Origin: an uncultured Gammaproteobacteria bacterium
GTDB lineage: Bacteria > Pseudomonadota > Gammaproteobacteria > JAIEPX01
Assembly: GCA_963725255.1 (NCBI GenBank)
Contig: CAVRXV010000001.1
Location: forward strand, 109,115-173,114
Direction: 5' to 3'
Length of the DNA: 64,000 nt
The notes beneath the pieces are model-generated. The model saw nothing but the letters and a program-made list of their open reading frames with translations. It was not told the origin of the DNA and searched no databases. A program made the position numbers and the translations under genes. Positions 49,511 to 54,800 of this stretch are shown one piece after another; within the stretch, counting starts at the first letter, position 1; every line of letters begins with the position of its first letter.

Positions 49511-51703
49511 CTAAACAATAGAGACGTGATTTAAAGTATTTTCAGCATATACTGTAGAATGCGTAACTGCAGAGGTATAAGTTGTATACATAGCTCCACC
49601 AATATTGACAATAGCGCCAGCACTCCAAACGTCCGCTGCACTATTGTGTAATACGAGAGCATCGTGAGCGCCACCTTCAACTTGAAGCGTATCAAGGTGA
49701 GACATATTCGCAACACCTTGTGGATTTAAATCCACTTCATTACCGTGCAGTGATTGTAAAGGTCTTAAATCAATCACATCAAAATCTTTGAAGATTGTGG
49801 TATTTTGCAAATTCGCCATTATTCCATCATTTTCTAACCATAGTGTGTTTTGTCCACCTATCCCTGCGTCTACTGAAGTGTCAAAAGCGCTGTAAACGAT
49901 AGTGTTATTTCCGGATCCACCATTAATAATATCATGCCCAGTACCAGAATCGATAAAAGTATTACCGGATCCGCCTATGATCGTATGGTTTGCTGATCCA
50001 GCATAGATAACATCATGACTTCCCACACCGTGAATCACAGAGTTATTAGGATCGCCTGAGGGATTAGGACCACCTAATTGTGTGATGGCTCCGTTAAAGT
50101 TTTGACCATAAACTACATATTGATTGCTACCACTGGTAATTACAATATCACCCAATCCATCACCATTTAAATCACCACCACCACTCACCGTTGGTTCACT
50201 TAAAATTCCTGCTACTGTTTGATTTGAAGTAAATCCTGAAGGATCTGTAATTACAAATCCTTCGGAAGAATTTAGGTTAGTGTAATTGATATCTGCAGGC
50301 AAACCCGATGTACTTCCAAAAATGACATAGACTGCACCTTTACCACCGTAGGCAGCACTATCTAAAAATGCAAAATCCGGTAAACCATCTCCATTTACGT
50401 CGCCCAAATAAGCAATACTGGTGATATTTGCTGCGCCCGATGAAGTTAATTCAAAACCATTGGTTCCATTCAATGAAGACACATCAAAATTAGTTGAGGT
50501 GTTAAATGTTGTACTACCAAATAAAACATACACAGTGTTTTGCGATGAAAACGCAAGTGAGTCCACACCATTTCCTGTGAAATTTCCGATATCGGTTGGA
50601 TTAATGAGATAATCAGTTGCGCCAGGTGTTCCAGCAGAATTTGTGATTAAAAATCCATTCGCTCCAGAAATACCCCCAGATGAAACTGTTACCGTAGAAG
50701 AAAATGCGGGAGTATTGCCGAGTATCACACCAATGCTTCCAATGTGTGTTGTCGTATTGTAGTAACTGACTAATATGTCATTTTTTCCATCGCCTGAAAT
50801 ATCAACTGATCCCATGTCTTGAAGACCTGAAGAAAGATAAGAGCTTGGACGTGAAATTTGAAATCCATCCGATCCAGATAAGGTCGCTGTATTAATACTG
50901 CTACCCGGTGTTGTAGTTCCAAAAACCACCGCTCCCCAACCCGTTGTTGAATCGCTTAGTGAAAAATCACTGAGTCCATCGCCATTGACATCACCTAAAG
51001 CAGCTGAAGTTACTGCATTATTTCCTAAAATTTCAATTCCCACACTGGATATTAATTGACTTGATGAGAATCCGCCGAGTTGTCCTAAAATAATATGTCC
51101 ATTTCCACCAAAAAATTCAGAGATTAAAATATCATTAATACCATCACCATTAAAATCACCGAGAGAGTTTACGTGTTGACCGTATGCCGCAATGGGTACT
51201 GAAAATGAATCGTTATTAAATGCTGATAGCGTTAATGAAGGATCGTTAAATGGTACACTCGCACCAAATGTTGCCTGACCATCTACGATGAATGCTCTTG
51301 TGTAAGGACTTGCTCCTGCACTAAATCCGTTTGCGACTAATAAATCTCCAAAACCATCACCATGTTGTACTATTGTTGAGCTTGTCGCATTCAGTAATGC
51401 AGTGTGAGTTAAGGTAAATCCATGCGCACCGTCAGTTAATGATTGAATTGTAAAACTCAAAGTTACTGGAGACGCTGGGGGAGCAAAAGTGACACGTACC
51501 GCATCTTCAACATTGACCACAGAACCATTCAGTGAAGTATACGTTGTATATCCCGCAATCACTGAAGATGGAGCCCATAAATCTGTTGCTATTAATGTGA
51601 CAGTATCATGCGCATCACCATTAATTGTCATCGTATCTCCGTGTGACATTGCATTTACAGTAGCAGCATTTAATGTCACACTATTACCAATCAAATCTTG
51701 CAT
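49511..51703 (-). CDS. 3' portion (module 3 + C-terminal T1SS-type domain) of a giant FG-GAP/RTX adhesin-like gene
   Basis: FG-GAP/VCBS blades (GDFNGDGINDILIS, GDVNGDGLSDF, GDVNGDGLPDFAF, GDLNGDGLGDIVIT). RTX-like Gly-rich nonapeptides (GGSGNTFIDSGTGHDIINGGSGNNTIVYS). Homology to the upstream ORF continues across the 51703-51802 gap in the -1 frame. Confidence 0.85.
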   Translation of the reverse strand: MQDLIGNSVTLNAATVNAMSHGDTMTINGDAHDTVTLIATDLWAPSSVIAGYTTYTSLNGSVVNVEDAVRVTFAPPASPVTLSFTIQSLTDGAHGFTLTHTALLNATSSTIVQHGDGFGDLLVANGFSAGASPYTRAFIVDGQATFGASVPFNDPSLTLSAFNNDSFSVPIAAYGQHVNSLGDFNGDGINDILISEFFGGNGHIILGQLGGFSSSQLISSVGIEILGNNAVTSAALGDVNGDGLSDFSLSDSTTGWGAVVFGTTTPGSSINTATLSGSDGFQISRPSSYLSSGLQDMGSVDISGDGKNDILVSYYNTTTHIGSIGVILGNTPAFSSTVTVSSGGISGANGFLITNSAGTPGATDYLINPTDIGNFTGNGVDSLAFSSQNTVYVLFGSTTFNTSTNFDVSSLNGTNGFELTSSGAANITSIAYLGDVNGDGLPDFAFLDSAAYGGKGAVYVIFGSTSGLPADINYTNLNSSEGFVITDPSGFTSNQTVAGILSEPTVSGGGDLNGDGLGDIVITSGSNQYVVYGQNFNGAITQLGGPNPSGDPNNSVIHGVGSHDVIYAGSANHTIIGGSGNTFIDSGTGHDIINGGSGNNTIVYSAFDTSVDAGIGGQNTLWLENDGIMANLQNTTIFKDFDVIDLRPLQSLHGNEVDLNPQGVANMSHLDTLQVEGGAHDALVLHNSAADVWSAGAIVNIGGAMYTTYTSAVTHSTVYAENTLNHVSIV

Positions 51704-51801
51704 TGGTTTTAAGTCTAAAATATTGATTCCTGTGAATACAGTTCCACCAATAAAATTGACATGCGTGTTATCATACTTAAACCACAGGGTATTTGAAGTT
51801 C

Positions 51802-54800
51802 CTAGCCCCCAAATACTTGCGTATCTAATCCACTGTAAACAATGGTATTAATTCCAGGACCTCCGATAATAACATCATGACCAGTACCTGAATCAATAAA
51901 GGTAGTACCAACTCCACCGATAATCGTGTGATCAGCAGTTCCTGCATAAATCACATCATTGCTTCCTACACCTTGAATTACCGCTTGATTTGCAGTTCCC
52001 ATTTGGGTTATTGCACCGTTAAAATTATTTCCAAAAACGATATATTCATTACCTTGACTTGTGATAACAATATCACCTAAACCGTCACCATTTAAATCGC
52101 CACCTCCGCTTACAGCAGCGTATGATAAATTTATAGAAGGATCCGTGATTACAAATCCTTGACTTGAATTCAGATTAGTAAAATTAATTGTCGCTGGAAA
52201 TGCCGTTTGACTACCAAAAATCACATACACGGCACCAAGCCCACCATACGCACTGCTATCGGTAAAACCAAAATCAGGAAGGCCGTCGCCATTAACATCA
52301 CCTAAATATGCAATGTTATGAATTTGATCACCACCTGCTCCTACTAATGTGAATCCATTGGTACCATTTAAACTTGCGAGATCAAATGTTGTGACAGAAG
52401 ATAATGCTGGGCTACCAAAAATTACAAATACAGCATCTTTAGACGATAAGGCAATACTATCAATACCACTTCCTGTAAAATCACCGATGTTAGTAGGGTT
52501 AACCAATATATCATTAGAGCCTGACGACGTAGAAGAATTGGTAATGATAAATCCATTTGCACCCGTAATACCCGTCAAACCAACATCGACTGTTGCACTG
52601 AAAATTGGAGAGTTACCTAGAATGACACCGACACCTCCCACTTGCGCAGTCGTGTCCCAGAAGCTAACAAAAATATCGTTCAGTCCATCGCCTGTAATAT
52701 CTCCTCCTCCAACATCTTGTACGTTTATAGAGAGGTAATTATTGGGGCGATCAATGACAAAACCGTTGGTTCCATTTAGCCCGGAATAATCAATACTTGT
52801 GCCAGGCGTTGTAGTACCGAAAATAACGGCAGAAAAATCTCCTCGTGAATTACTGATGATAAAATCAGCTAAGCCATCACCATTGACATCACCTAATGCC
52901 GCTGCAGTATCAGTATACCCACCGCCACTAGTAAATATAGTCACTCCAGCACTGCCTATAGTACTCAATGGAACATTCGCTGGAAATCCTCCAGGTTGCC
53001 CTAATACCAAAATTGAAGGATATCCATAAATACTCGAAATCAGAAAATCATTAATTCCATCACCGTTAAAATCACTTGTTGAAATAACCTGACTACCGAA
53101 CACATTAATAGGTGTATTAGCAGTATCATTGTTAAACACCGTTAGACCTACAGAGGTATCGTTAAAAGGCACATTCGTATGAAATGCTGCTTGACCGTCT
53201 ATCAAGAAAGCATGCGTGTAGGGTGAGGTTCTGCTGGAACTAAAATCCGTGGCAACTAATAAATCGCCAAATCCATCACCATTTTGAATGATCGTTGAAT
53301 TGCTAGCGTACAGGGTGCTGGTTGCCGTTAAACTGAATCCATGTACACCATCAGTTAAAGATGATAATGTGAAATTTAATGCTACTGGGGCAATTGAAGG
53401 TGCAAAAGTGACATGGACTTCATTTTGTACATTCACTACAGAACCGCTCATTGATGTATAGGTTGTATAACCAGAGATAGGTGATGTTGCTGTCCATATA
53501 TTAGTCGCAATTAAAGTCAAAATATCATGCGCATTGCCTGTTATGGTCATCAAATTAGCGTCTGACATTGATAATACTGTTGCTGCATCTAATGTGACAC
53601 TATTTCCTACCATACTTTGCATAGACGTTAAATTGATAACATCAATTCCGGTATAATTAGTAGCGCCAATAAAAGTAACGTGTGTATTATCATATTTAAA
53701 CCAGAGAGTATCTGTTCCAGCTCCACCGCTCACCGGTGCATCGTCACGGTAATAAACTATCGTATCATTTCCTTGTCCAGCGTAAATTCTAGAATTTCCA
53801 GGAGCATCGATAAAATCATTGCCACCGAGCGCATTAATAATATCATTACCTCCACCACCGTAGATCACATCATTGCCATTCGTTCCGGTTAGAGTTTCAC
53901 TGCCCGCGGTACCTTTAAGCGTAATGACACCATTAAAATTGCTACCAAAAACAATATAGCTCACTCCACTCGCACCATATGCAGGTGCAGGTCCTACATT
54001 GGTAGTAGGATTACTTAAAACAATGTCAGCAATTCCATCACCATTTAAATCTCCACCACCACCTATGGTTGTAGCAGAAACGCCTGGTGTAAATTGAATT
54101 ACCAAACCTTCATTAGGAGTTAAATGTGAATAATCAATTACTGCCGGGAAAGGATTAGTACTACCAAAAATAATGTAAGCGGCACCTAGACCACCATAAG
54201 CACTTTTATCGATAAAACCAAAATCGGGCAATCCATCGCCATTCACATCTCCCAAATAAGCAATACTCGTTACATAATGTTGTGGAGCTGAAGATGTTAA
54301 TTCAAATCCATTAGAACCATTGACTGTACTTAAATCGAAATTAACATTATTCGTAAAAGAATGGCTACCAAAAACGACATAAGTTGAAGAATTAGAAGTA
54401 AATAAATCTAATTCATTAATGACGAGACTATCGATACCACTACCATTAAAATTACCGATATTCACAGCAGGATCTGCAAAATGGTGGCTACTAGAAGGAG
54501 AATCTGTACTATTATAGATGACAAATCCAGCCGGCTGACCTACCTGTCCTACATTCCCGATATCAAATGTAGAGGGAAATCCCGTGCTATTCCCAAAAAC
54601 AATTGTGGCTGTATCAGTTGTAACGTTATGATACGTTTTAAACAGAATATCGTTGAATCCATCGCCATTTAAATCGATTCCCATAATCGTATTAGATTGA
54701 CCAATAGCAAATCTACCCGCTGCGGTAATTGTAAATCCATTAACACCATTTAATGCACTCACATCCAATGAACTTGGAGGTGTTGAACTTCCAAAGACAA

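What the first reader, a model, noticed from the sequence alone, without database searches (positions are those of the whole stretch)
51700..51815. The giant gene is split by a 1-nt frameshift inside a G5 (plus-strand C5, 51806-51810) run
The 1697-aa ORF ends ...IVYSGLDTQVFGG* (gta ttt ggg ggc TAG). In the -1 frame the same DNA continues ...W G L G T S N T L W F K Y D N T H V N F I G G T V F T G I N I L D L K P M Q D L I G N S V T L N A A.... This matches the module 1/2 junction (GTDTLWFKYDNTHVTFIGATNYTGIDVINLTSMQSMVGNSVTLDAA) and runs straight into the 730-aa ORF. One extra G would restore a single ORF of roughly 2460 codons. As it stands, the 5' product lacks the last module and the terminal secretion domain. 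There are three options: a sequencing error, a recent inactivating mutation, or slipped-strand ON/OFF switching at the short homopolymer.
Basis: seen in the sequence. Interest (0 to 1): 0.6.

Follow-up and report, generated by a model that had tools for sequence, protein, structure and literature searches.

The report
Giant gene split: likely assembly error
A 7.4-kb gene for a giant secreted surface protein really is cut in two by a one-base frame shift at a run of five Gs. The same draft genome carries similar one-base breaks in about 6% of its conserved genes, indispensable ones included, so the split is more likely a sequence-consensus error than a biological switch.

Summary
On the minus strand a 1697-aa ORF (51802-56895) ends ...VFGG-TAG at a G5 run (plus-strand C5, 51806-51810). 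The -1 frame, open from 51847, continues LGTSNTLWFKYDNTHV... into the 730-aa ORF (49511-51703). The two frames differ by one base and together span 2461 codons.

The syntenic orthologue between purA and rnr is one uninterrupted ORF of 2462 aa, and all other relatives found are also uninterrupted.

No independent copy of this species' gene exists in any searchable collection.

The best indirect evidence is a census against a close relative. Of 972 orthologues (1.13 Mb), 58 (6%) are frame-broken in this assembly only. They include gyrB, alaS, atpA/D, uvrA, ftsZ, ftsA, secA, map, recA and fmt, plus miaB in this same window. About one gene per 39 kb carries an isolated one-base indel, including a G-run indel in an identical TTTGGGGG context.

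Estimates:
- consensus error: about 0.65
- genuine recent frameshift: about 0.28
- phase variation: about 0.04 (a 5-nt tract is too short and is not conserved)

Low interest.

The parts
51802..56895 (-). 5' ORF, 1697 aa. It holds an N-terminal region, a Thr/Pro-rich linker, module 1 (FG-GAP blades plus RTX nonapeptides), inter-module domain D1, and module 2 up to the end of its RTX block.
   Evidence: PF01839 FG-GAP, PF13517, PF00353 HemolysinCabind
49511..51847 (-). 3' open frame in the -1 register, 778 codons: inter-module domain D2, module 3 and terminal domain D3. The first start codon is the ATG at 51703 (730-aa ORF), with no Shine-Dalgarno-like sequence before it.
   Evidence: 74-75% identical to the terminal parts of orthologues
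51806..51810 (-). G5 run on the coding strand (C5 on the plus strand), where the two frames meet.
   Evidence: one of only two G5 and two C5 runs in the gene
51802..51813 (-). 12-nt interval TTTGGGGGCTAG within which homology places the one-base offset. It ends with the TAG stop at 51802-51804.
   Evidence: upstream-frame VFGG plus downstream-frame LGTSNTLW rebuild the junction motif seen in all relatives
19104..20433 (+). Internal control in the same window. The miaB gene is broken into four frame pieces by three frame changes within about 0.6 kb.
   Evidence: UPF0004 and Radical_SAM on separate ORFs; three-frame translation

Best explanation
The locus is one gene of about 2461 codons. It encodes a modular, probably type-I-secreted, FG-GAP/RTX surface protein and is the positional orthologue of an intact 2462-aa gene in a close relative. 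The one-base offset at the G5 run is most likely a consensus (base-calling or polishing) error of a long-read-based metagenome assembly: one G too few was called. It is probably not a feature of the organism's DNA. Shown here: the offset exists in the file, the orthologues are intact, and the assembly is full of comparable indels in genes that cannot be broken in a living cell. Inferred: that this particular indel belongs to that error population.
For: 1. **Ancestral state is one ORF.** The syntenic orthologue (miaA-hfq-hflX-hflK-hflC-purA-[gene]-112 aa-rnr) is an uninterrupted 2462-aa ORF. Other relatives are uninterrupted at 1795 and 2414 aa. Eight further homologues of 1772-2428 aa were returned.

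2. **No other lesion.** Across 2461 codons both pieces are fully open and conserved.

3. **The assembly carries many impossible frameshifts.**
   - The only gyrB has three.
   - The only alaS has at least two.
   - miaB, 32 kb away in this window, has three.

4. **Census against relative G001** (1.95 Mb fetched). It covered 972 orthologues and 1.127 Mb of coding DNA.
   - 58 orthologues (6.0%) are frame-broken here and intact there.
   - 29 have clusters of three or more indels (atpA, atpD, uvrA, gyrB and others).
   - 29 have one or two isolated indels. Among them are ftsZ, ftsA, secA, map, recA, clpA, fmt and nuoL, confirmed by Pfam.
   - That is about one isolated hit per 39 kb, so a 7.4-kb gene has roughly a 17-20% chance of carrying one.

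5. **Isolated indels at homopolymers occur in housekeeping genes.** Examples are A5 to A6 in fmt, and G4 to G5 in a UbiH-like monooxygenase in the same TTTGGGGG context.

6. **The assembly is probably long-read based.** Twenty-six IS copies of about 1.24 kb lie inside contigs. Residual indels that fragment genes are a known weakness of such assemblies (PMC9262707, PMC12007338).
Against: - No reads or independent assembly could be examined, so nothing here is direct.
- The dominant error class in this assembly is a one-base insertion at a non-repetitive site (62 insertions against 23 deletions in clusters). The giant gene needs a deletion at a homopolymer.
- Only 2 of about 33 isolated events lie at G/C runs of 4 or more. 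The per-run error rate is therefore low (roughly 0.1-0.4%) and comparable to what a real slippage mutation could give.
- The region around the gene (about 20 kb, from rnr to miaA) is otherwise clean.
- This lineage shows signs of genuine gene decay: IS expansion and broken transporters, a nuclease and upp. Some of these could be real.
- Large surface-protein genes are frequent targets of real inactivation.
Confidence: 0.65

Rival explanations
1. A genuine, very recent one-base deletion in a G6 tract, either fixed or polymorphic in the sampled population. It truncates the protein after module 2. The 1697-aa product would then lack the last module and the C-terminal domain, and the 3' part would be an untranslated remnant: a nascent pseudogene.
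For: - The lesion sits at a homopolymer, the natural hotspot for slippage.
- This genome shows traits of ongoing reductive evolution. There are two IS families with 12-14 copies each.
- Isolated homopolymer frameshifts hit dispensable genes such as an S1/P1 nuclease (C6), an NhaP antiporter, upp and a BrnQ-like transporter. Five of the seven homopolymer-associated isolated events fall in non-essential genes.
- The local 20 kb is otherwise error-free.
Against: - There is no second lesion in 2461 codons, and both parts are still conserved, so the event would have to be extremely recent.
- All relatives are intact.
- The assembly's background of artefactual indels is enough to explain a single break in 7.4 kb.
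Confidence: 0.28
2. Slipped-strand phase variation: the G tract toggles between lengths and switches the full-length secreted protein ON and OFF.
For: There is a G run inside the ORF of a likely surface-exposed protein, and the stop codon lies immediately after the run.
Against: - The tract is only 5 nt. Working cut-offs for phase-variable poly-G/C tracts are 7 or more, and 8 or more has been shown experimentally (PMC6321876).
- The genome holds 1016 G5/C5 runs, so this one is not special.
- The tract is not conserved at the same junction in orthologues.
- It lies 69% of the way into the gene, not near the 5' end.
- No length variants could be found anywhere.
Confidence: 0.04
3. A structural artefact or scar. 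Either the two 1.9-kb tandem units (D1+module 2 and D2+module 3) were misjoined during assembly, or the duplication or recombination event that created the three-module gene left an out-of-frame joint.
For: The frame break lies within the roughly 36-nt stretch where the end of unit 1 meets the start of unit 2. The unit period is 1919 nt, which is -1 modulo 3. Module number and type differ between relatives.
Against: - The units are only 65% identical in DNA and share no exact repeat longer than about 20 nt, so repeat collapse is unlikely.
- That divergence makes the joint old. An out-of-frame joint of that age would have let the 778 downstream codons decay, yet they are intact and 75% identical to orthologues.
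- Glycine-rich junction motifs (GG.G) are where G runs naturally occur, so the coincidence is modest.
Confidence: 0.02
4. Programmed -1 ribosomal frameshifting at GGG-GGC-TAG produces the full-length protein from the DNA as written.
For: The downstream frame is the -1 frame, and a stop codon directly follows the G run. A -1 slip on the last glycine codon would give VFGG-LGTS, which fits the junction motif.
Against: - There is no X-XXY-YYZ slippery heptamer in the zero frame.
- The downstream 113 nt have no unusual RNA structure (z = -0.09).
- Orthologues are plainly in frame, so no conserved recoding signal exists.
Confidence: 0.01

Closest known systems
Gene-fragmenting indel errors in long-read genome and metagenome assemblies (PMC9262707; PMC12007338)
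   Same: A single-base indel at a short homopolymer splits an otherwise intact, conserved ORF. Many other conserved genes of the same assembly are split in the same way. IS repeats resolved inside contigs point to long reads.
   Different: Most errors in this assembly are insertions at non-homopolymer sites, often clustered in conserved genes. The event here is an isolated deletion-type offset at a G run.
Simple-sequence-repeat (poly-G/C) phase variation of surface proteins in Campylobacter, Neisseria, Haemophilus and Helicobacter (PMC6321876, PMC5953494, PMC2823697)
   Same: A G tract lies inside the reading frame of a probable surface or secreted protein, and a one-unit change toggles the frame.
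   Different: The tract has 5 units, not 7 or more. It is not conserved in relatives, it sits in mid-gene, and no length variation was observed. No such mechanism is established for Legionella-like or Coxiella-like bacteria (my own knowledge).
Giant RTX-type type I secretion substrates and adhesins such as LapA, SiiE, FrhA, MpIBP and Legionella RtxA (family-level knowledge, not tested by alignment here)
   Same: Very large size, tandem modules, calcium-binding nonapeptide (PF00353) blocks near module ends, no N-terminal Sec signal detected by family search, and LssB-type ABC exporters in the genome.
   Different: The modules are FG-GAP beta-propeller-type repeats, not Ig-like or cadherin-like repeats. 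A roughly 115-aa domain of unknown family follows every module, not only the last. No exporter genes are adjacent: the neighbours are purA and rnr.
Nascent single-lesion pseudogenes of host-restricted bacteria, for example Coxiella burnetii (my own knowledge)
   Same: An IS-rich genome in which a single frameshift at a homopolymer hits a non-essential gene.
   Different: Cannot be told apart from an assembly error here. The same assembly shows equivalent lesions in ftsZ, secA, gyrB and alaS, which cannot be pseudogenes.

Membership tests
Assembly/consensus indel artefact | Other indispensable single-copy genes of the same assembly carry equivalent frame breaks | tested here: met
   gyrB, alaS, miaB, atpA/atpD/uvrA. 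Also ftsZ, ftsA, secA, map, recA and fmt. In total 58 of 972 orthologues are broken.
Assembly/consensus indel artefact | Orthologues and close relatives read through the site in frame | tested here: met
   L088 2462 aa, L001 1795 aa, L002 2414 aa
Assembly/consensus indel artefact | Raw reads or an independent assembly disagree with the consensus at the site | not testable with these tools
No independent copy was found.
SSR-mediated phase-variable gene | Hypermutable tract length (poly-G/C of 7 or more) | tested here: not met
   The tract is G5. Cut-offs are from PMC6321876.
SSR-mediated phase-variable gene | Tract lies within the ORF or promoter, so that a length change toggles expression | tested here: met
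SSR-mediated phase-variable gene | Tract length varies among reads, isolates or relatives, with the tract itself conserved | tested here: not met
   Relatives have no G run at this junction. No variants were found by pattern scans. Variation at read level was not testable.
Pseudogene (genuine inactivation) | Disrupted reading frame relative to intact orthologues | tested here: met
Pseudogene (genuine inactivation) | Further lesions or relaxed constraint downstream of the break | tested here: not met
   778 downstream codons are open and 74-76% identical to orthologous modules.
Programmed -1 ribosomal frameshift | Slippery heptamer in the zero frame plus a downstream stimulatory structure, conserved in relatives | tested here: not met
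   No heptamer. Fold z-score is -0.09. Relatives are in frame.
RTX-type type I secretion substrate | Calcium-binding nonapeptide repeats | tested here: met
   PF00353 at E = 1.7e-11 in the 5' piece. In the 3' piece E = 0.0014, below the Pfam cut-off.
RTX-type type I secretion substrate | Recognised C-terminal secretion domain | tested here: inconclusive
   No Pfam or NCBIfam family matches the terminal roughly 115 aa. The same domain recurs after each module.
RTX-type type I secretion substrate | Cognate ABC exporter in the genome | tested here: met
   Two loci score above the TIGR03375 (LssB) cut-off, at C1:18593-20677 and C4:72586-74664. Neither is adjacent to the gene.

The most novel reading that the evidence does not exclude
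The G tract is real and length-polymorphic in the population. This uncultured Legionella-like or Coxiella-like bacterium would then toggle, or have just lost, export of a three-module FG-GAP/RTX surface protein at a module seam. The OFF state would yield a 1697-aa product that lacks its C-terminal domain. It would be phase variation, or incipient loss, at an unusually short tract in a lineage where SSR switching is not known.
Probability: 0.04. Interest if true: 0.35.

Novelty: not a real feature. Interest (0 to 1): 0.08.

Why it matters
The main value is as a caution. If the split is a consensus error, the locus should be annotated as one gene of about 2461 codons, orthologous to the intact 2462-aa gene of the relative. 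No biology (truncated adhesin, ON/OFF switch) should be built on it.

More broadly, about 6% of conserved genes in this assembly are frame-broken by indels, including ftsZ, secA, gyrB and alaS. Every 'frameshift' or 'pseudogene' observation in this genome needs read-level confirmation. The completeness estimate of 89.9% may also be depressed by broken marker genes.

If the frameshift were real, it would be an ordinary nascent pseudogene.

Tried and rejected
- **Independent copies of the same species' gene.** All of these found nothing:
  - exact-product look-ups of both ORFs
  - pattern scans across the junction allowing G4-G7, in metagenome and genome collections
  - protein searches with junction-proximal pieces
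  - a back-translated scan of metagenome contigs with the end of module 2
- **Frameshift census from the genome alone.** Codon-score approaches were too noisy, with a false-positive floor of about 0.9%. I replaced them with a stricter partner test and then with the orthologue census against a relative.
- **'In-frame stop' lesions from the first census.** These proved to be artefacts of my over-long ORF starts in the relative and were dropped.
- **IS copies as an error yardstick.** They show no internal indels across 26 x 1.24 kb. Repeats pool coverage during polishing, so I did not treat this as evidence of general accuracy.
- **Repeat-collapse misassembly.** Rejected, because the tandem units are only 65% identical.
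- **Programmed frameshifting.** Rejected, because there is no slippery site, no structure and no conservation.
- **Read-through sequence.** I did not build one. The two pieces were always searched separately.
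Full report
**Observation**

The minus strand of the window carries a 1697-aa ORF (51802-56895). It ends ...TIVYSGLDTQVFGG followed by TAG. The last two glycine codons and the preceding TTT form TTTGGGGGC; the G5 run is at 51810-51806.

The frame displaced by -1 is open from 51847 and reads WGLGTSNTLWFKYDNTHVNFIGG.... It continues without a stop to 49511, and its first possible start codon is the ATG at 51703.

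The junction motif seen at every module boundary of this protein family is V-x-G-G-x-G-x-x-T-L-W followed by FKYDNTHV or LENDG. Here it is rebuilt only by reading VFGG in the upstream frame and LGTSNTLW in the downstream frame. Homology therefore confines the offset to the 12 nt TTTGGGGGCTAG.

The locus is 7385 nt, one base short of 2462 codons.

**What the gene is**

Both pieces carry FG-GAP repeats (PF01839, PF13517) and RTX calcium-binding nonapeptides (PF00353). No NCBIfam model fits beyond weak RTX and FG-GAP-like hits.

The architecture, in order:
- an N-terminal region of about 500 aa;
- a Thr/Pro-rich linker;
- three modules of about 530 aa (FG-GAP blades plus an RTX block), each followed by a roughly 115-aa domain of unknown family.

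The last copy of that domain ends the protein.

The gene lies between purA and rnr, downstream of miaA-hfq-hflX-hflK-hflC. A close relative (GCA_019748175.1, locus L088) has exactly this gene order, with one uninterrupted ORF of 2462 aa. Two other relatives have uninterrupted ORFs of 1795 aa (two modules) and 2414 aa. Further homologues of 1772-2428 aa were returned as single proteins.

The genome also has an intact 1841-aa paralogue and two LssB-type type I secretion ABC exporters above the curated cut-off. A type-I-secreted giant surface protein is therefore a reasonable but inferred reading.

The window's middle module is 59-63% identical to terminal-type modules and 43% identical to first-type modules. 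The relative's middle module is of another type, so module content is fluid in this family.

The two tandem units (domain plus module) are 65% identical in DNA with a period of 1919 nt. They share no exact repeat above about 20 nt.

**Direct tests that were not possible**

None of the following found another copy of this species' gene:
- exact-product look-ups
- pattern scans across the junction with a variable G run
- protein searches with junction-proximal pieces
- a metagenome scan with the end of module 2

The choice between error and real mutation therefore rests on indirect evidence.

**Quality of the assembly**

The genome has 18 contigs, 2.81 Mb and an estimated completeness of 89.9%. 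It has 89% coding density and many long intact ORFs.

It also contains breaks that cannot be biological:
- The only gyrB is interrupted by three one-base insertions within 0.7 kb, while every conserved block is pristine.
- The only alaS is in at least three frame pieces.
- In this same window, miaB (19104-20433) changes frame three times.

Two IS families with 14 and 12 near-identical copies lie inside contigs. That points to a long-read assembly.

To quantify the breaks, I fetched 1.95 Mb of the close relative G001 (DNA identity in orthologues is 81-93%). I took its ORFs of 120 aa or more, located orthologues in this genome by tblastn, and aligned the DNA of every pair that showed a frame change.

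| Measure | Result |
|---|---|
| Orthologues examined | 972 (1.127 Mb of this genome's coding DNA) |
| Frame-broken here, intact in the relative | 58 (6.0%) |
| Broken by clusters of 3-15 indels | 29 (gyrB, atpA, atpD, uvrA, alaS, nuo genes and others) |
| Broken by one or two isolated indels | 29 |

The cluster-type indels are dominated by one-base insertions at non-repetitive sites: 62 insertions against 23 deletions.

The isolated class includes ftsZ, ftsA, secA, map, recA, clpA, fmt and nuoL (identities confirmed by Pfam), plus Dot/Icm components. So isolated single-base errors also exist, at about one affected gene per 39 kb. They comprise roughly 19 insertions and 14 deletions.

Seven isolated events lie in homopolymers:
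- a T6 deletion
- a C6 deletion
- an A4 deletion
- a T3 to T4 insertion
- a T5 to T6 insertion
- an A5 to A6 insertion, in fmt
- a G4 to G5 insertion, in a UbiH-like monooxygenase, in a TTTGGGGG context identical to the one studied here

Earlier notes of this scan on other windows of the genome (aceE, upp, yicC, NhaP, nuclease, kdp) describe the same lesions. My census recovered upp, yicC, NhaP and the nuclease independently.

**Weighing the explanations**

With one isolated hit per 39 kb, a 7.4-kb gene has about a 17-20% chance of carrying one artefactual indel. Counting clusters as well, the average density is higher still. A single, otherwise traceless break in a gene whose relatives are all intact is what that background predicts.

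Several points weigh the other way:
- The commonest artefact here is an insertion at a non-repeat site, not a deletion-type offset at a G run.
- Only 2 of about 33 isolated events sit at G/C runs of 4 or more.
- Five of the seven homopolymer-associated events hit dispensable genes, as real reductive evolution would.
- The 20 kb around the gene are otherwise clean.
- The genome is IS-rich.

I therefore keep a substantial share for a genuine, very recent frameshift.

My estimates:

| Explanation | Probability |
|---|---|
| Consensus error | 0.65 |
| Real recent mutation or polymorphism | 0.28 |
| Phase variation | 0.04 |
| Structural misjoin or duplication scar | 0.02 |
| Programmed frameshifting | 0.01 |

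**Why the more interesting readings are unlikely**

*Phase variation.* It needs hypermutable tracts. Published working cut-offs are seven or more G/C, with switching shown for eight or more (PMC6321876). This tract has five units, is one of 1016 such runs in the genome, is one of four in the gene, and is absent from the same junction in relatives.

*Programmed -1 frameshifting.* There is no slippery heptamer, the RNA downstream folds no better than shuffled sequence, and relatives are in frame.

*A scar of the tandem duplication.* The break does fall in the roughly 36-nt seam between the two tandem units. However, the units are 35% diverged while the 778 downstream codons are intact and conserved. 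An out-of-frame joint of that age is excluded. Glycine-rich seams are also where G runs occur naturally.

**Verdict**

The finding is ordinary either way, being an artefact or a nascent pseudogene. The decisive test is a count of G-run lengths in the raw reads.

Noticed in passing
window 19104-20433 (+): miaB is split into four frame pieces by three frame changes within about 0.6 kb, while its conserved blocks are intact. It is the same kind of lesion cluster seen in gyrB, alaS, atpA and uvrA elsewhere in the genome, and is almost certainly a consensus artefact.
   Followed up: yes
genome G000: C5 ~54.8-57.8 kb (gyrB), C9 ~60-62.8 kb (alaS), C5 ~166-170 kb (atpA, atpD), C18 ~56.5-59.3 kb (uvrA), C4 ~272.7-275 kb (ftsA, ftsZ), C4 ~281.5 kb (secA): In this assembly 58 of 972 conserved orthologues (6%) are frame-broken by non-3n indels, while they are intact in a close relative. 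Half are clusters of 3-15 indels, mostly one-base insertions at non-repetitive sites. Any 'pseudogene' call in this genome needs read support.
   Followed up: yes
genome G000, e.g. C17 140953-141903 and C17 214137-215051: There are two IS families of about 1.24 kb, with 14 copies (98.7-99.4% identical) and 12 copies (99.5-100% identical), all resolved inside contigs. This indicates a long-read assembly and a recent IS expansion.
   Followed up: partly
window 49511-56895 vs L088 6001-13389, L001 240-5627, L002 5018-12262: Module content of the giant gene differs between close relatives: two, three or three-plus modules. The window's middle module is a diverged terminal-type module, and the relative's is another type. 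The inter-module domain of the two-module relative looks like a mosaic of the window's D1 (first half) and D2 (second half), as if modules are gained or lost by recombination within that domain.
   Followed up: partly
window 49164-49502 (+): A 112-aa ORF on the opposite strand between the giant gene and rnr has no Pfam match. An ORF of the same size and position is called in the syntenic relative (L088 13397-13735), so it may be a real conserved small gene.
   Followed up: no
genome G000: C7 ~ minus-strand 82488-85321, C13 66210-69905, C11 ~18.8-23.4 kb: Several very large effector-like genes share a C-terminal block with a ...GDCGYTA[LF]G... motif, which is OTU-like cysteine-protease-like by eye. 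At least two of them are also frame-broken.
   Followed up: no
genome G000 C4 ~311,230: A UbiH-like FAD monooxygenase gene has an extra G in a TTTGGGGG context (G5 here, G4 in the relative). This is the closest analogue in the genome to the giant-gene site and would make a good control locus for read inspection.
   Followed up: partly
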